From positions 25,234,001-25,298,000 of the forward strand of contig NC_043000.1 in NCBI RefSeq assembly GCF_006345805.1: a DNA stretch of 64,000 bases. The letters are read 5' to 3'. This stretch comes from Octopus sinensis. Its lineage: Eukaryota. Positions 10,615 through 59,072 of the stretch are shown here, in pieces. The translations under genes were made by a program, and so were the position numbers. Numbering within the stretch: the stretch's first letter is position 1; every line of letters begins with the position of its first letter. The notes beneath the pieces are model-generated. The model was not told the origin of the DNA and did no database searches. It saw only the letters and a program-made list of their open reading frames with translations.

Positions 10615-11021
10615 ATTTTTTTTACTACCCACAAGGGGCTAAACACAAAGAGGACAAACAAGGACAGTCAAACGGATTAAGTCGATTAAATCGACCCCAG
10701 TGCGCAAATGGTACTTAATTTATCGACTCCGAAAGGATGAAAGGCAAAGTCGACCTCGGTGGAATTTGAACTCAGAACGCAGCGACAAACAAAATACCTA
10801 TTTCTTTATTGCCCACAAGGGGCTAAACATAGAGGGGACAAACAAGGACAGACAAACGGATTAAGTCGATTAAATCGACCCCAGTGCGTAAGTGGTACTT
10901 AATTTATCGACCCCGAAAGGATGAAAGGCAAAGTCGACCTCGGCGGAATTTGAACTCAGAACGCAGCGACAGAGGAAATACCGCCTAGCATTTCGCCCGG
11001 CGTGCTAACGTTTCAGCCAGC
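10615..11021 (-). mobile_element. SINE family A dimer
   Basis: Two body+tail-1 units with junction AAAGAAATAGGTATTT. Confidence 0.9.
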
Positions 11022-11429: not shown

Positions 11430-12181
11430 TACATCTGCCTGTTGGCTCTCCTCCTGCAACTCAACTTGATTTCGTGCCGGGTCGTCTGCTGCTGGAGAGG
11501 ACCGATCAGGTAAAGGACCTGGGTATCTTGGTGGATTCCTCCTTTTCGCCTTCGGTCCAGTGTGTCCATGCTGCCAACAAAGCACGCGGAATTCTGTTCT
11601 AGATTCGACGGTCATTCGGAATGCTCACAGCAGCCATATTCCTCATGCTGGTGAGACCCATATTGGAGTACGGGATTCAAGCCTCTTCTCCCTATCTCCT
11701 CAAAGACATACAGCATATCGAAAGAGTCCAGAAGCTGGCTACCCGCATGGTTCTTGGTCTCAAGAATTTGTCTTACGAAGAAAGGCTGAAGACGCTCTAC
11801 CTTTATTCTCTAGAAAAACGACGACGCCGTGGAGATCTCATTCTTGCTCAGAACATCATAAGCGGAAAGTGTAACCTCTCGAAAGAGCTGTTCTTCACTC
11901 CTGCTCCAGAGCGTCGGCTGCGGGGTCATTCCGAAAAGCTCTATCTGCGACGATTTCATCTCAATCGAAGGAGAGAGGCTTTCTCCGTCCGGGTTGCGGA
12001 TCCGTGGAATAAGCTGCCAGACGATATGGTGAAGATGCCGACGACCGCTCGGTTCAAAGTCTCCCTTGACCTCAAGTGGCCTGAACTCTTTACATGAACA
12101 CAACCCTGTACATAACTCCATGTCCCCCTACATGGCCTTGCTTTTTGCTTTTTGAGCCAAAAAATTAACTAACTAACTAAC
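11430..12181 (+). mobile_element. CR1-clade LINE 3' end (ORF2 C-terminus, 3' UTR, (AACT)n tail)
   Basis: KDLGILVD upstream; ORF 11621-12097 LVRPILEY...IERVQKLATRMV.GL..LSYEERL..L.LYSLEKRRRRGDLI...RGH..KL...FSVRV...WNKLP is the typical CR1 C-terminus; terminal AACT repeats. Confidence 0.92.
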
Positions 12182-12759: not shown

Positions 12760-13576
12760 AGCGGCGAGCTGGCAGAAACGTTAGCAGGCCGGGCGAAACC
12801 GTATTTCGTCTGCCGTTACGTTCTGAGTTCAAATTCCACCGAGGTCGACTTTACCTTTCATCATTTCGGGGTCGATAAATTAAGTACCAGTGACCCACTG
12901 GAGTCGATGTAATCGACTTAATCCGTCTGTCTGTCCTTGTTTGTCTCCTCTGTGTTTAGCCCATTGTGGGTAGTAAAGAAATAGGTATTTCATCTGCCGT
13001 TACGTTCTGAGTTCAAATTCCGCCGAGGTCGACTTTGCCTTTCATCCTTTCAGAGTCGAAAAATTAAGTACCAGTTACGCACTGGGGTCGATGTAATCGA
13101 CTTAATCCGGTTGTCTTTCCTTGTTTGTCATCTCTGTGTTTATCCCCTTGTGGGTAGTAAGGAAAAAAAGAATAAAAGGCGATCTGGCAGAAACGTTAGC
13201 AGGCCGGGCGAAATGCTTAGCGGTATTTCGTCTGTCTTTACGTTCTGAGTTCAAATTCCGCCGAGATCGACTTTGCCTTTCATCCTTTCGGGGTCGATAA
13301 ATTAAGCACCAGTTACGCACTGGGGTCGATGTAATCGACTTAATCCGTTTGTCTGTCCTTGTTTGTCCTCTCTGTGTTTAGCCCCTTGTGGGTAGTAAAG
13401 AAATAGGTATTTCGTCTGTCTTTACGTTCTGAGTTCAAATTTTGCCGAGGTCGACTTTGCTTTCTATCCATTCTGGGTCGATAAATAAAGTACCAGTTGC
13501 GTACTGGGGTCGCTCAAATCGACTGCCACCCCTCCTCAAAAATTTCGGGCCTTGTGCCTAGAGTAGAGTAGAACAG
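12760..13576 (+). mobile_element. SINE family A tetrameric array ending in tail-2
   Basis: Four body units and two heads; whole array flanked by the 14-bp direct repeat AATATTACTGGAGA (12742-12755, 13577-13590). Confidence 0.9.
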
Positions 13577-18167: not shown

Positions 18168-18603
18168 TATATATTTATAGTTTGCAATTTTGAAATAACT
18201 AAAAGTTGTTTTAATCATACAAGACTTAAGAATAGAGTTAAGTCACTAATTTTCTATTTTTAAAGAAATTTGTTTTTAAGTTTAATATTCGTCGTTTTGT
18301 TGTTGTTGTTGTTTTTGCCCCTACGAAAGAGAAAAACATATTTTTCCGATTTTTTGTGCGATTTCATTAAAAAGTAAAAGCTAACTTTACAGGATTTTTT
18401 TTCGACAGAAATTCGAATCTTTCAAACAATTCTATTATGTTTTGTCTTTTCTGTTTTACTCGCGTTTCAGTAAAAGAGAAAAGACAAAAGATAACAGAAT
18501 CGTTTCCAGCCGCATAAATCGACTCCGGTATTTATATTTCTTTTCTTAAGTCTGGTACTTTTTTTTTCTATCTGACCCTTTTGCCGAACCACTAAGTTAT
18601 AGT

Positions 18604-18733
18604 GTTTGTTGTTAACACAATGTTTCGGTTGATATATACCCTCCAGCCTTCATCAGGTGTCTTGGGGGAAGTTTCGAACTCGGAAACTTGGGGTTATTAA
18701 CCACAAGATTCCGAGTTCGAATCCAGGCAGTGA

Positions 18734-18776
<43 letters not shown>

Positions 18777-18967
18777 AAGAAGAAGAAGAAGAAGAAGATC
18801 GAAAAACACCTTAGGAATGAGAACCCACGTTCGAAATTTTCCCCCAAGACACCCGATGAAGGCTGGAGGGTATATCAGCCGAAACGTGTTAACAACAAAC
18901 AATATGAGAATGTAAATAATATAAAAATAATGTACATAATAATCCTCATCTCTTAATACAGAACTGT
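18604..18967 (+). mobile_element. Non-autonomous Penelope-like element: inverted terminal duplication, tRNA-like segment, (AAT)n/(GAA)n, hammerhead-bearing tail
   Basis: 18604-18679 is an inverted copy of ~18827-18900; both carry C(T/C)GATGA-AGGCTG...CAGCC-GAAAC; T-arm-like GAGTTCGAATCC at 18713-18724; tail matches 58894-59072. Confidence 0.75.
18612..18661 (-). ncRNA. Minimal type I hammerhead ribozyme motif
   Basis: Minus strand GACAC-CTGATGA-A-GGCTG..CAACC-GAAAC-ATT-GTGTT; stem I GACAC/GTGTT; one stem II mismatch and an imperfect stem III. Confidence 0.6.
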
Positions 18968-20216: not shown

Positions 20217-20689
20217 ATTATTGCTGGACAAACTGAAATTAGCTATCCTTTAATTTCGCTATGAAAATCACAAGCTTTCAGAAATTATAATATTGTCAGG
20301 CGGAGTTTTGTATTGATCTGCAAATATTTCAAGATCTGACGTGTGGAATGCTTGTGTAGCAGTGCAGACAATGTCGATTTCATCGAGGAAGTGAGCTAAT
20401 GTACTGCACAAACATTTGATCACTATAAACGAATTATCTGTACTGGTTGTTCAACCAGAAATTGCGGAACCCACATCTGTCGTTTATCATAGCAGATTCC
20501 CGCTCCACTAGTGTTCAATACAATTATATATTACTAGTATATTACAGGTACTCATTTCAAATGTAGTAAAGTGAGAATAAGCTCTAGCATGGACCTTCTA
20601 GTGTTTCTCCCAACTATTTCTGGCAGAGATAGTCGTCAAGTTACCCTCAAATCCTGCACTACGATATTAAAATTTAACAAAAGGAAACA

Positions 20690-21505
20690 TTCTTTTCTGC
20701 TCTAGGCACAAAGCTCGAACTTTTTTGGGGAAGCGGACCAGTCGATTAGATCGACCTCGGTATGCAAATGGTACTTAAATTATCGATCCCGAAAGGATGA
20801 AAGGCAAAGTCGACCTCGGCGGAATTTGAACTCAGAACGTAGCGGCAGACGAAATAACTATTTCTTTACTACCCACAAGGGGCTAAACACGGAGAGGACA
20901 AACAAGGACAGACAAACGGATTAAGTTGATTATATCGACTCCAGTGCGTAACTGGTACTTATTTAATCGACCCCAAAAGGATGAAAGGCAAAGTCGACCT
21001 CGGCGGAATTTGAACTCAGAACGTAGCGGTAGACGAAATACCGCTAAGCATTTCGCCTGGCGCGCTAACGTTTCTGCCAGCTCGCCGCCTTGGAAATGTA
21101 ATGTATTCTTTTCTTCTCTAGACACAAAGCCCGAAATTTTGGGGGAGAGGGTCAGTCGATTATAGCGACCCCAGTGCGTAACTAGTACTTATTTAGTCGA
21201 CCCCGAAAGGATGAAAGGCAAAGTCAACCTCGGCGGAATTTGAACTCAGAACGTAGTGGCAGACAAAATACCTATTTCTTTACTACCCACAAGGGGCTAA
21301 ACACAGAGGGGACAAACAAGGACAGACAAACGGATGAAGTCGATTATATCGATTCCAGTGTATAACTGCTACTTATTTAATCGACCCCGAAAGGATGAAA
21401 GGCAAAGTCGACCTCGGTGGAATTTGAACTCAGAACGTAGCGGCGGACGAAATACCGCTAAGCATTTCGCCCGGCGTGCTGACGTTTCTGCCAGCTTGCC
21501 GCCTT
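20690..21505 (-). mobile_element. Two adjacent SINE family A dimers, each ending in tail-2
   Basis: 20690-21090 and 21105-21505: head-body-tail1-body-tail2. Confidence 0.9.
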
Positions 21506-32564: not shown

Positions 32565-33528
32565 TATCGTGTGGTGTGTACGTGCGTGCGCGTGTGTATG
32601 TTTGTGTATATATGTGTATGTATATATATATATATGCATATATATAATATATATATTATATATATATATATATATTTATTATAATATATATATATATATA
32701 TTACTGTATGTATTCAAGTGTGTGTTTTATGATGAGCATGTCACACCATCTCCTGATCGAAGAAGCAAAAAGAGGATACAATGAAAACAAAAAACAAAAC
32801 AAAAAATGAAGAAAGCAGCAAGAAGCCAAAATGGCGGACGTGGTGGAGAAGGAGGCCGTGGTGGTTGTGATCGTGGCGGGGTGGGAGGAAGAACAAGCGT
32901 GAATAGAGCTGGAACATCAAACATATGGAAGAGAAATGATAAGTTAACCTTTATTATTGACGACATTAATAAGGCGAATCTAATTGCCAGGCAAACATGC
33001 TGACCAAACGCATGATCACATGAGCTAATGTATACAGAACCACACAAATACATGTATACATACATACATACATACATACATACATACATACATACATACA
33101 TACCTAGATACATAATACATACATACATACATACATACTACATACATACATACATACATACATACATACATACATACCTAGATACATACATACATACAAA
33201 CATGCATACATACAAACCTAGATACATACATACTGTAAAAATCTGTTTAAACTTTCCAGGGGTTTATCATTTAAATATATATGAGCATGTCTAGATATGT
33301 AACTATATGCATGAGAATACAAACATAAAACATACAAATCTGTACATACATACATACATACATACATACATACATACATACATACATACATACATACATA
33401 CAAAACTACCCTGTTGCTGGTGTTGAAATTCCAATGAAGGAGTCTTGGATCTAGGTTAGAAATCGGTTCTTTCTCTATTGGCAAGAAATCTTGAGATAAA
33501 CTGAATAATGACAACATAAATACACACA

Positions 33529-33579
<51 letters not shown>

Positions 33580-33605
33580 GATATAATATATATATATATA
33601 TATAT

Positions 33606-33657
33606 CTCTTTTACTTGTTTCAGTCATTTGACTGCAGCCATGCTGGAGCACCGCCTT
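33606..33657 (-). mobile_element. SINE family B 3' tip abutting the Penelope-like fragment
   Basis: CTTGTTTCAGTCATTTGACTGCAGCCATGCTGGAGCACCGCCTTT. Confidence 0.85.
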
Positions 33658-34014
33658 TACCAATGCAGAGCTTATACTGAATCAGATGTCTACTTGTATA
33701 TCGGAGCTTCATCATCGAAATTGGCCGTTAGAATATCGAATCACTTCACAACGTTTCGCGATTTTGGAAAGCAACACGCGACCGGGTTAAGTAAATTAGT
33801 CTGGCGTTTGAAGAACGCGAATTCAACCTTTAGACTGGAATGGTCGATTTTATCGGTGTCTGTACCGTTTGATAGAGGCAAAAGAATCTGTAATCTTTGC
33901 AACTCGGAACTTTTTCACATTTTGTTCGCCCGAGGGCAACTTGTTAACTCGATTTTGCAAAATTCTTTTAGATGTCCGCACTGGAGGCGGCACACATTTC
34001 TTGCATACCAATGA
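33658..34014 (+). CDS. GIY-YIG endonuclease domain fragment of a Penelope-like element (no genuine start codon)
   Basis: YQC...YIGAS....VRISNH..TF......T.LSK.VW.LK......W.IL......C.LC..E...I......N......C.H matches the Neptune-type PLE endonuclease pattern; the first 10 residues of the ORF-track entry are SINE-derived. Confidence 0.88.
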   Translation, partial: YQCRAYTESDVYLYIGASSSKLAVRISNHFTTFRDFGKQHATGLSKLVWRLKNANSTFRLEWSILSVSVPFDRGKRICNLCNSELFHILFARGQLVNSILQNSFRCPHWRRHTFLAYQ

Positions 34015-52395: not shown

Positions 52396-54107
52396 AATTA
52401 ACCCTATATAATTATCTGATTCATAATATTTGTTCTCATGTCGCCGCAATACCACTTGAGGCACATGCAATGGCAATTCGACGTTCAGCGCGCAGCTTTG
52501 CGAGAATCAAATTGATAACGAAAGTTTTACCAGTACCACCTGGAGCATTCAAAAAGAAAAGCTTTCCTTGGTTCAATCTAACGCTGTCAAGAATTTCATT
52601 ATAAATCTTTCTTTGTTCAGACAAAAGTCTTGGTTCAACTCGCGTAATTGTTTCCGTCAATTCGGCAATGTTGTAGTTTTTTTCCGATATGTATTCAACA
52701 TCCAAAGGCGCTTCATGATGGAATTCACTTAAACCGCGTATAACATAATGTCTGATGTGTCTGTCCATGTCGATTAATGCCTCATTATAAACATCGTCGT
52801 TGCCATCACGTAGCGCTAAATTAGCCTGTATGTCCTTTGATAGGCTCTGTCTGAACGATTCCCAAAGGTTAAGAGGGTTGCTGGGATTACAGTGGATTAA
52901 TATGCTACAAAACAATCGATGCATTTACAATTTGAGGCCTCTGCTAATGTCCTCTGTAAGTGGTCGTCATTGAGAAGAAGTCCGCGCCTCAAACATGCTT
53001 CCCTGCAAGTGGCGCAGATGATACCATCAACCGTGCGAAGATCAGCAAAAAACTTCGGTCCAGTAACTACATGAAGCAGCATTCTCAAAAAGAAGATTTC
53101 CTGTTTGGTAGGATGAATATTATACACATGCCCAATGACGTTCTTCCTAGAAACACCGGGCCAATTGTCAAGTTCTGTTCCATGTGACCTGCGCTTCCAA
53201 TTATTGTTGTTGTATGTGTAATATTCCGGTACTTCAGGGTAAATGAGAGTAGCAGCAAACTCATCAACTGAACACAATTTAAAAAACGCTGTAAGCGTAG
53301 TCCCTTTTGGATTTTCAATGACTTGACGTGCATTTTTCTCTGTGAAGTAAACCAGCTGTCTCTTCTGTAAATGAACATTCAGGAACATTCTAGGAAGAAC
53401 TGATGGTGAGCTTAGATGAATCTCGTATCCAAAAATGCGCCACGCTGCATAATTGGAGGATACATACCTACCCAAAACGAATTGTTTAATTTCGTCATGT
53501 CTAAGGTCTTCATCACTGAACCCAAACACGGCCATATCATCGCCCTTATTAATGTACTTGCAGAGGTATTGTATGCATCTCACCGAACTGCAGTACTCAA
53601 TATTAATGTGTGCATTAAATGTTTTGGAAAGCAAAGGGTTGAATGGAACAATCCAGGCATTATCAACATCGAATGTTATTAACCGTTGTATAACTCTAGC
53701 TGTGCGGCCACCCAAACCTGTGTGGTGGTGGTGGTGGTGGCGATGATAATTGTCTGTATGAATGCAGACAGACGTGTAGAGAGAGAGTGTGAAAGCGCTG
53801 TAGAACGCCGTTTGACGAATCGACGTTATATATAGAAAGTGATGGGAAGGGAGGAAATAGAGTGAGTGAGGGAGGAAGACAGATACATAAAAGACTGAGA
53901 GTGGACTTGTCAAAGTGGGTTTTTGGCCCTAGCAACGACACCTTTTAAGATATGGATTTCTAACGTAGCCCACGGGCATCGTCACCTCATTTTACATGTC
54001 CCTGTAAATTTTGGAGTCAATCCGAAAGGATGTAGTGGCCTTGAAAGCGGTCCAAGCGGTCGAGTCAAACAAACAAACTTTTCGCATTTCAGTTTTATGA
54101 ATAGAGA
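52219..54107 (-). mobile_element. Internally deleted Helitron retaining both termini and part of RepHel
   Basis: 5' TCTCTATTCATAAAA (54107 downward); 3' hairpin ACCCGCGCGTAGAGCGGGT then CTAG (52219-52222); A/T target. Confidence 0.9.
52436..53680 (-). pseudogene. Helitron RepHel fragment (Rep C-terminal region to Pif1-like helicase N-terminus), one frameshift near 52910
   Basis: VDNAWIVPFNPLL...FNAHINIEYC....QYLCKYINKG.D, DEI..F..GRYVSS..A.WRI, FFLRMLL..V.GP..F.DLRTVDG, and Walker A APGGTGKTF...ASSGIAAT. Confidence 0.93.
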
Positions 54108-57523: not shown

Positions 57524-58104
57524 CTTTTCTGCTCTAGGCACAAGGCCCGAAATTTTGGGGGAGGGGGACAGTCGGTTAGATCGACCCCAGTAAGCAACTG
57601 GTACTTAATTTATCGCCCCCGAAAGGATGAAAGGCAAAGTCGACCTCGGCGGAATTTGAACTTAGAACCTAAAGACAGACGAAATACCTATTTCTTTACT
57701 GCCCACAAGGGGCTAAACACAGAGGGGGCGAACAAGGACAGACAAACGGATAAAGTCGATTATATCGACCACAGTGCGTAACTGGTACTTATTTAATCGA
57801 CCCCGAAAGGATGAAAGGCAAAGTTGACCTCGGCGGAATTTGAACTTAGAACGTAAAGACAGACAAAATACCTATTTCTTTACTGCCCACAAGGGGCTAA
57901 ACACAGAGGGGGCGAACAAGGACAGACAAACGGATAAAGTCGATTATATCGACCCCAGTGCGTAACTGGTACTTATTTAATCGACCCCGAAAGGATGAAA
58001 GGCAAAGTCGACCTCGGCGGAATTTGAACTCAGAACGCAACGGCGGACGAAATACCGCTGAGCATTTCGCCCGGTGTGCTAACTTTTCTGCCAGCTCTCG
58101 CCTT
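57524..58104 (-). mobile_element. SINE family A trimer ending in tail-2
   Basis: Three body units; flanking 14-bp repeat CAAATC(C/G)TAATATT (57510-57523, 58107-58120). Confidence 0.92.
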
Positions 58105-58446: not shown

Positions 58447-58897
58447 TTATTATTTATTGCCTTTGCACAGCTTCAAACGCTGAAGATGTACTACGGTGTC
58501 AGCTGTTCACTACCAGTGAACTAAGGTAACACCTCTTATTTTTCGAGCACCTTCCGGAGTATTCGAGCGGTTCCAAGCAGTGTTGTTTTCTGCAAGTGCT
58601 CCAGCCTTATTGCAGCCCCTATTTGTTCCACGCACTTCTCGAGATTTTTGCTCACTGTTCCCAGGGCTCCGACAATTATTAGTACCACTGCTACCTTTTT
58701 CATCGATCACAACTGCTTAACTGCCCAAGCTAACCTGTCATATCTCTCGACTTTTCTTTCTTTCTTGTCGCATACCTTGTTGTCAGCTGGGCATGCTATG
58801 TCTATGATCCAGCATAGTTTGTTTTCTTTCTCAATTAAAACTATGTCCAGCTTCCTATTCTCAATCTCATGGTCGCACTGAATCATAAAATTCCATC
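58447..58897 (-). mobile_element. R4/Dong-clade non-LTR retrotransposon 3' end (restriction-like endonuclease domain)
   Basis: Minus frame WNFMIQCDHEIENRKLDIVLIEKENKLCWIIDIACPADNKV..K...KVERY..L......W......IIVGALGTV...L...LQKTTLLGTARILRKVL*, then a short UTR and (TAA)n. Confidence 0.9.
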
Positions 58898-59072
58898 GAA
58901 AAATACCTTAGAAATGAGAAACGAAGTTCGAAATTTCCCCAAGACACCTGATGAAGGCTGGAGAGTATATCAGCCGAAACGTTAACAACAAACAAGATGA
59001 GGACAAATATCCGTCAAATGTAAATAATGTAAATAATGTACATAATCCGTCATCTCTTAAATATAGAACTGT
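58894..59072 (+). mobile_element. Hammerhead-bearing terminal segment, same family as 18800-18967
   Basis: GACAC-CTGATGA(58948-58954)-AGGCTG..CAGCC-GAAACGTT; flanks align with the 18.8-kb copy. Confidence 0.8.

What the first reader, a model, noticed from the sequence alone, without database searches (positions are those of the whole stretch)
18604..18967. tRNA-like segment + microsatellite + hammerhead tail with Penelope-style inversion: candidate Penelope-mobilised, ribozyme-bearing SINE
Seen: GGGGTTATTAACCACAAGATTCCGAGTTCGAATCCAGGCAGTGACC (18690-18735) looks like the 3' half of a tRNA, with a B-box/T-loop GTTCGAATCC. It is followed by (AAT)n(GAA)n and a ~170-bp tail containing GACAC-CCGATGA-AGGCTG..CAGCC-GAAAC. 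Upstream lies an inverted copy of the hammerhead region (18604-18679) with an intact CTGATGA core, plus a 13-nt inverted copy of the T-arm (18673-18685). The inversion appears to switch templates at a shared GTTCGAA. Established: Penelope-like elements carry minimal type I hammerheads in their pseudo-LTRs and commonly insert with inverted 5' terminal duplications, whereas classical SINEs borrow LINE tails. Inference: a Pol III-type small element parasitising Penelope machinery and using ribozyme cleavage. The A-box half is missing in this copy, so the Pol III head is not proven.
Basis: partly seen in the sequence, partly recalled or inferred. Interest (0 to 1): 0.72.

Follow-up and report, generated by a model that had tools for sequence, protein, structure and literature searches.

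The report
Penelope retrotransposon with tRNA-derived promoter
This is a dead, truncated copy of the end repeat of an abundant protein-coding jumping gene (a Penelope-like retrotransposon), not a separate SINE; most sampled copies that reach the repeat's tRNA-like start end there, so the element is likely transcribed by RNA polymerase III, the enzyme that normally makes tRNAs.

Summary
The sequence features are real, but the element is not an independent SINE. The tRNA-like segment, (AAT)n and hammerhead tail form the pseudo-LTR of an autonomous Penelope-type retrotransposon (RT plus C-terminal GIY-YIG endonuclease) with thousands of copies. The full head (A box, B box) lies 29 nt after the ORF stop. 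The 'tail' is the first ~50 codons of the ORF, with the hammerhead inside them. The window copy is 5'-truncated at the anticodon loop, has a 98-nt inverted arm, and both ribozyme copies look broken. Across the family, exact 20-mer counts fall 5.8-fold at the head's 5' edge (4,938 to 852), against 1.5- and 1.2-fold on either side. 32 of 49 sampled arms that reach that edge end within 8 nt of it. The 2.6-kb sense strand has no TTTT (p=0.037; 1 of 36 other PLE loci likewise). Short and ORF-linked copies share the same haplotypes. Best reading: a tRNA-derived internal Pol III promoter, possibly driving the whole coding element. This is inferred; RNA-seq was uninformative and an RT stop at a hairpin is not excluded. 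The scan reported this family at least eight times on other DNA of this genome.

The parts
18599..18696 (-). Inverted 5'-side arm: 3' half of the head joined at GTTCGAA to the hammerhead region; lacks the terminal tail
   Evidence: Inverted repeats I1-I5; matches to the family pLTR
18614..18661 (-). Inverted minimal hammerhead: core CUGAUGA intact, stem III pair and one stem II pair broken; likely inactive
18673..18679 (-). Shared GTTCGAA at which the T-arm joins the tail (about 114 nt skipped)
   Evidence: the same junction was found at 1 other genomic locus, L360
18673..18721 (.). Palindromic junction of the two arms: 24-nt arms, apex at 18697 in the anticodon loop of the head
   Evidence: Inverted repeat I2, 92% complementary
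18698..18736 (+). 3' half of the tRNA-like head; A box lost by 5' truncation in this copy
   Evidence: Family heads; likeness to genomic tRNAs
18715..18724 (+). B box GTTCGAATCC
   Evidence: Sequence; B-box consensus recalled
18738..18797 (+). (AAT)n(GAA)n microsatellite between head and start codon
   Evidence: present in family copies
18817..18967 (+). 5' end of the Penelope ORF (ATG at 18817; frameshifted in this copy); ends at the family's main 3' end
   Evidence: Copies L135 and L129 read 390 and 388 aa unbroken from this ATG; 49% identity to full-length PLE protein P0024
18848..18890 (+). Minimal type I hammerhead inside the coding sequence; CCGATGA core and missing GUU triplet; likely inactive
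18938..18967 (+). Optional ~30-nt tail between the family's two preferred 3' ends
   Evidence: Coverage steps near head+241 and head+266; same pattern described for PAc (PMC11167929)

Best explanation
[quoted passage not shown] Shown: the unit reads ORF stop, 29 nt, tRNA-like head (A box, B box), (AAT)n, ATG, hammerhead in codons ~11-24, RT, GIY-YIG. Copies end at two fixed sites about 120 and 150 nt into the ORF and pile up at the head's 5' edge. Inferred from Poseidon biochemistry: the element's protein nicks AT-rich DNA and starts reverse transcription at those internal sites on uncut RNA. Inferred: RNA starting at the head gives ~270-nt SINE-like copies when copying starts in the first pLTR, and ORF-containing copies when it starts in the second. 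Because the sense strand has no T4 terminator, Pol III could read through the whole 2.6-kb unit. Hammerhead cleavage, predicted to need a dimer or protein, would cut off the start codon and act as a switch rather than make copy ends. How an uncapped RNA would be translated is unexplained.
For: Head follows the ORF end in 28 of 30 loci (four are near-identical duplicates, one is the query). RVT_1 match E 9e-9; GIY-YIG region 56% identical to PLE protein P0024. In-frame ORF from the pLTR ATG; 32 of 43 ATG-to-tail lengths keep frame. Exact CpG-free 20-mers: 7,366 (ORF start), 4,938 (mid-head), 852 (just upstream of head), 734 (ORF end). In 58 arms chosen only by a mid-head 20-mer, ends per nt were 0.038 at -8..+8, 0.007 at +9..+29 and 0.003 at -270..-23. 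ORF-carrying copies L102, L107, L119 also start at the head. TTTT: 0 in the 2,621-nt majority against 2.6 expected from 5,000 synonymous-codon shuffles, p=0.037; 80 other PLE loci 457 observed against 431 expected. Head is 50/77 identical to a genomic tRNA-Arg (z 7.3), 40-46 of 75-77 to 12 others.
Against: No transcript evidence: three RNA runs show no start pile-up and no strand bias. A GCCC-AC-GGGC palindrome sits exactly at the head's 5' edge, so an RT stop could give the same pile-up. Three of the seven ORF-start loci that reach the head (L110, L114, L126; L102/L109 counted once) run past it into a preceding ORF end, so their template began upstream of that head. The TTTT test is one evolutionary sample; GGGG is also absent (0 against 1.1), and 1 of 13 T-poor control loci (L256) has no TTTT and no tRNA head. 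The head fails ARAGORN (0 of 30 loci) and Rfam tRNA.
Confidence: 0.62

Rival explanations
1. Passive capture: an ordinary Pol II-transcribed Penelope element picked up a tRNA or SINE head in its 3' UTR; the head no longer promotes, and copies end there because the RT stalls or cDNA ends anneal at the hairpin.
For: Palindrome at the boundary and many mirror junctions there; this copy's own junction is at another hairpin, the anticodon loop; tandem templates that begin upstream exist; ends spread over about 15 nt rather than one base.
Against: The pile-up also holds in copies with no inverted arm (about 15 of the arms with no flank match). Other hairpins of the head and hammerhead give much smaller steps. 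A and B boxes match consensus while the cloverleaf stems are degenerate. TTTT is absent.
Confidence: 0.22
2. Pol III makes only the short pLTR RNA (SINE-like copies amplified in trans), while the coding RNA comes from Pol II read-through.
For: Head-started short copies outnumber ORF-linked ones about 5-fold; any solo pLTR holds the head and the internal RT start site; it avoids translating an uncapped RNA.
Against: No haplotype private to short copies: 192 arms, 64 ORF-linked, lowest p 0.06. ORF-carrying copies also start at the head. It does not explain the missing TTTT in the ORF.
Confidence: 0.12
3. One reading: an independent tRNA-derived SINE that took a Penelope tail and uses hammerhead cleavage.
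For: The ~270-nt head-microsatellite-tail unit is the commonest head-bearing form; schistosome SM-alpha is a precedent (review PMC6765202).
Against: The head is part of the autonomous element; shared haplotypes; the tail is coding sequence; copy ends do not map to the cut site.
Confidence: 0.04

Closest known systems
Penelope/Poseidon PLEs, e.g. PAc of Anolis carolinensis (PMC11167929; parts 1-2 of 4 read)
   Same: Single ORF with RT and C-terminal GIY-YIG; pLTR in partial tandems; hammerhead overlapping the ORF start with the cut downstream of the ATG; 3' ends about 110-150 nt into the ORF with an optional 30-nt tail; inverted 5'-truncated arms (PMC8557442, passages).
   Different: The parts read mention no tRNA-like A/B-box head and say only 'a promoter in its pLTR'. 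Here the ATG lies about 30 nt upstream of the hammerhead, and the sense strand has no TTTT.
Schistosome SM-alpha / Sj-alpha SINE-like repeats (seen only through review PMC6765202, passages; the original was not held)
   Same: A Pol III promoter followed by a hammerhead in a mobile repeat.
   Different: Described as non-coding tandem SINE-like repeats cut into monomers by the ribozyme; here the unit is the terminal repeat of a coding element and ends do not map to the cut.
Non-LTR retrozymes (PMC7761336, passages; bioRxiv 10.64898/2026.07.22.740005, part 1 of 5 and passages)
   Same: Short type I hammerhead units related to PLE pLTRs.
   Different: Tandem, said to lack promoters, with circular RNA; this family is dispersed, head-bearing and tied to its own ORF.
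tRNA-derived SINEs (general knowledge)
   Same: Head of about 60-65% identity to tRNA with A and B boxes; 5' ends at the head; thousands of short copies.
   Different: The body is the autonomous partner's own 5' coding end; no separate lineage; no A-rich tail or clear target duplication.

Membership tests
EN+ Penelope-like element (C-terminal EN) | Single ORF with PLE-type RT followed by GIY-YIG endonuclease | tested here: met
   RVT_1 E 9e-9; 49% and 56% identity to N- and C-terminal parts of P0024. Pfam GIY-YIG itself scored below cut-off on P0024 (E 0.23) and missed the family pieces; the C-C-H-H pattern was read by eye.
EN+ Penelope-like element (C-terminal EN) | Pseudo-LTR from partial tandems, inverted 5'-truncated arms, optional tail | tested here: met
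EN+ Penelope-like element (C-terminal EN) | Minimal type I hammerhead in the pLTR | tested here: met
   CTGA(T/A)GA in 42 of 53 scored arms; 12 invariant columns shared with hammerheads beside 12 other PLE loci; features as in PMC4209133 (passages)
Penelope/Poseidon clade | RT phylogeny with named reference elements | not tested
   No named reference sequences were on hand; assignment rests on domain order and no extra linker Zn finger, read by eye
tRNA-derived SINE | tRNA-related head with A and B boxes | tested here: met
   tRNA-profile hits of 8.7-23.4 bits; not called by ARAGORN or Rfam
tRNA-derived SINE | Non-autonomous unit with a head absent from the partner element and a lineage of its own | tested here: not met
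   Head is in the autonomous element; haplotypes shared
Pol III type 2 promoter | Pol III initiation at the head | not testable with these tools
   Indirect only; RNA reads uninformative
Pol III transcription unit | No oligo-T terminator on the sense strand | tested here: met
   0 TTTT in 2,621 nt, p=0.037; weak on its own
Active hammerhead ribozyme | Self-cleavage | not testable with these tools
   Stems I and II fold in intact copies; both window copies are damaged
Non-LTR retrozyme | Tandem short units each with a hammerhead | tested here: not met
   Copies are dispersed singles or inverted pairs; one head-to-tail pair seen (L006)

The most novel reading that the evidence does not exclude
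An autonomous, protein-coding retrotransposon whose whole 2.6-kb RNA is made by RNA polymerase III from a captured tRNA promoter, purged of oligo-T terminators, translated without a cap, and gated by a hammerhead that cuts off its own start codon. The same promoter spawns SINE-like copies of its own end: a LINE-like and a SINE-like element in one.
Probability: 0.38. Interest if true: 0.85.

Novelty: new variant of a known kind. Interest (0 to 1): 0.62.

Why it matters
Pol III promoters are the mark of non-coding parasites (SINEs); coding retrotransposons are thought to use Pol II or Pol I read-through (general knowledge). A Penelope element driven by a tRNA promoter would show that a long ORF can be expressed from Pol III in an animal genome. 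It would offer a route from PLEs to SM-alpha-like and retrozyme-like repeats, and give a testable system for what pLTR hammerheads do. For annotation, many 'SINE' calls in this genome are pieces of this PLE. Eight literature searches gave no title or passage describing a tRNA promoter in a PLE; most hits were seen as listings only, and Repbase, Dfam and subscription journals were not searchable.

Tried and rejected
Rfam and ARAGORN: no tRNA or hammerhead call in the window or in family loci. Expression: no RNA holder listed. Three raw RNA runs of one related species label, about 6% of each read, gave equal depth in both orientations, no start or end pile-up, and 78-79% of reads running into unrelated flank, which fits passive transcription of copies and says nothing on Pol III. 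tRNA head in other PLEs: 3 of 80 metagenome loci have a tRNA-like stretch; L261 and L280 were read and are separate repeats upstream of truncated copies, absent from their pLTRs, and L281 has the same hit sequence as L280. Closest relatives (63-70% identical proteins) had no DNA available. Other PLE families in this genome: all 30 loci fetched belonged to this family, so there is no same-genome control for the TTTT test. Two different RNA templates for the two arms: rejected as the rule; arms agree at subfamily sites in 25 of 29, 16 of 19 and 39 of 44 pairs (18.4, 9.9, 28.0 expected if independent), though the 3-nt indel agrees in only 21 of 28 (19.2 expected). A subfamily with the GTTCGAA deletion: rejected, 1 exact match genome-wide; template jump and later deletion cannot be told apart. 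Target duplication: only a 4-nt match at the ends, not counted. The in-script majority has alignment artefacts (one false stop at codon 138, a slip in the hammerhead), so ORF and ribozyme claims rest on real copies. The supplement of PMC13282606 was listed but not read; it may hold this family.

Full report
Setting. The window is G000:C4:25234001-25298000 of a 2.72-Gb genome. Its repeat landscape looks octopus-like; that label is recalled and echoed by note e1-9598556, and was not tested.

Observation. The insertion spans about 18599-18967. The direct arm (18698-18967) holds the 3' half of a tRNA-like head with B box (18715-18724), (AAT)n(GAA)n, and a ~170-nt tail with a hammerhead-like motif. 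The inverted arm (18599-18696) holds 24 nt of the head joined at GTTCGAA to the hammerhead region. The two arms meet at 18697. Rfam and ARAGORN call nothing.

The family. The tail has 3,674 first-look candidates genome-wide. Many of the 30 loci fetched carry a full head with A box TGGCGTAGTGG and B box GTTCGATTCC (part of that output was cut). Two carried upstream sequence that translates as the C-terminus of a PLE endonuclease. A search with that ORF end gave 30 loci, of which 28 continue 29 nt after the stop into all or part of the head, read by eye; four are near-identical duplicates and one is the query. L061 holds a near full-length copy with an RVT_1 match (E 9e-9). Its C-terminal piece is 56% identical to the full-length PLE protein P0024; Pfam GIY-YIG did not score on it.

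The tail is coding sequence. Real copies L135 and L129 read 390 and 388 residues unbroken from the ATG equivalent to window 18817, through the hammerhead, into the ORF. The match to P0024 is 49% and begins inside the hammerhead codons. 32 of 43 ATG-to-tail lengths keep frame. Copies end at two steps near head+241 and head+266, about 120 and 150 nt into the ORF. This mirrors the two internal RT start sites and optional tail of Anolis Poseidon, where uncut RNA is the main substrate and the hammerhead cuts downstream of the start codon (PMC11167929, parts 1-2 of 4 read). Contigs of four runs from four other organism labels cover all 30 bins of the junction region, so the family is not confined to this assembly.

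Hammerhead. The family form has a 5-bp stem I, CUGA(U/A)GA, an extra A, a 5-bp stem II, GAAAC and a GUU triplet with a palindromic minimal stem III. 42 of 53 scored arms keep the core. The one common non-CpG variant in the core is at the free position 7. Twelve columns are invariant across 4 family arms and motifs beside 12 other PLE loci. These features match the minimal PLE hammerheads said to work as dimers with low activity (PMC4209133, passages). The window's direct copy has CCGATGA and has lost the triplet; the inverted copy has lost the stem III pair. Both are likely dead.

Is the head a promoter? The head is 50/77 identical to a genomic tRNA-Arg(TCT) (z 7.3 against 300 shuffles) and 40-46 of 75-77 to 12 other genomic tRNAs, so its parent is unresolved. 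Exact CpG-free 20-mers count 7,366 at the ORF start, 4,938 mid-head, 852 just upstream of the head and 734 about 90 nt further up. I fetched the first 61 of the 4,938 mid-head matches (60 regions on C1) and dropped 3 duplicates. 9 of 58 arms end at +9..+29, 32 of 49 at -8..+8, 7 of 17 at -22..-9 (mostly run-over into the palindrome) and 7 of 10 at -270..-23. One of the 32 (L192) is an internal deletion, not a true end. Among ORF-start loci that reach the head, three stop at its edge, one folds back inside it and three run past it.

Terminators. The 2,621-nt majority of 86 segments has no TTTT. Synonymous-codon shuffles expect 2.6 in the ORF (p=0.037); GGGG is also 0 (1.1 expected, p=0.28). Thirty family loci, not independent, give 18 against 71.6. 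Eighty other PLE loci give 457 against 431; 1 of 36 of at least 1.5 kb, and 1 of 13 T-poor ones, has none. This is modest support.

SINE or not. In 192 arms (64 ORF-linked), seven variable sites show no difference at p<0.05, and both main haplotypes occur in both classes. These arms come from several differently selected searches. There is no sign of a separate SINE lineage.

Mechanism. Shown: architecture, ORF overlap, end distributions. Inferred: Pol III starts at the head; the protein starts reverse transcription about 120-150 nt into the ORF; copying from the first pLTR gives short copies, from the second gives ORF copies; inverted arms join at short palindromes or microhomologies, as here at the anticodon loop and GTTCGAA. 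Open: cap-independent translation, and the role of cleavage. RNA reads did not help. The main rival is an RT stop at the hairpin on the head's edge.

Prior knowledge. Pol III promoter plus hammerhead is known from schistosome SINE-like repeats (review PMC6765202, passages). Retrozymes are linked to pLTRs but described as promoter-less. An Octopus repeat annotation lists Penelope families and many unclassified SINEs, with no mention of ribozymes in the main text (PMC13282606, passages; supplement not read). Eight searches found no description of a tRNA promoter in a PLE. Eight earlier notes of this scan reach the same reading on other DNA of this genome; my reading was written before I saw them, and they are not independent evidence.

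Verdict. The locus is an ordinary dead copy. The family is a new variant of a known kind, interest 0.62, with a 0.38 chance of the striking version in which Pol III transcribes the whole coding element.

Noticed in passing
window 58896-59072 (+): Second copy of the same pLTR tail, without head; hammerhead has lost stem I 3' strand. It abuts what looks like a minus-strand fragment of another retrotransposon ORF (recalled motifs, not tested).
   Followed up: partly
window 52436-53928: Two ORFs (162 and 343 aa, minus strand) resembling a Helitron Rep/helicase, with a Walker A-like motif; resemblance recalled, not scanned.
   Followed up: no
window 33520-34014 (+): Fragment resembling a GIY-YIG endonuclease of a different PLE type; recalled, not scanned.
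   Followed up: no
window 11603-12097 (+): 164-aa fragment resembling the C-terminus of a CR1/L2-type LINE ORF; recalled, not scanned.
   Followed up: no
window 10617-10982, 12801-13165, 20689-21505, 57570-58056: Tandem units (periods 184, 184, 414, 184) of another abundant SINE-like repeat with a B-box-like end.
   Followed up: no
L127-L159 (ORF-start copies): Further clustered 3' ends inside the ORF: four copies end 428-430 nt past the tail; may be additional RT start sites. The cluster at 234-257 coincides with the query end and may be selection.
   Followed up: no
P0024: A relative 59% identical in the RT piece keeps the hammerhead-encoded peptide at its N-terminus, so the ribozyme-in-ORF frame is conserved beyond this genome.
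   Followed up: partly
L256: The closest metagenome PLE by best-segment identity (53%) also has no TTTT in 1,893 aligned nt but a T-rich 3' UTR and no tRNA head.
   Followed up: yes
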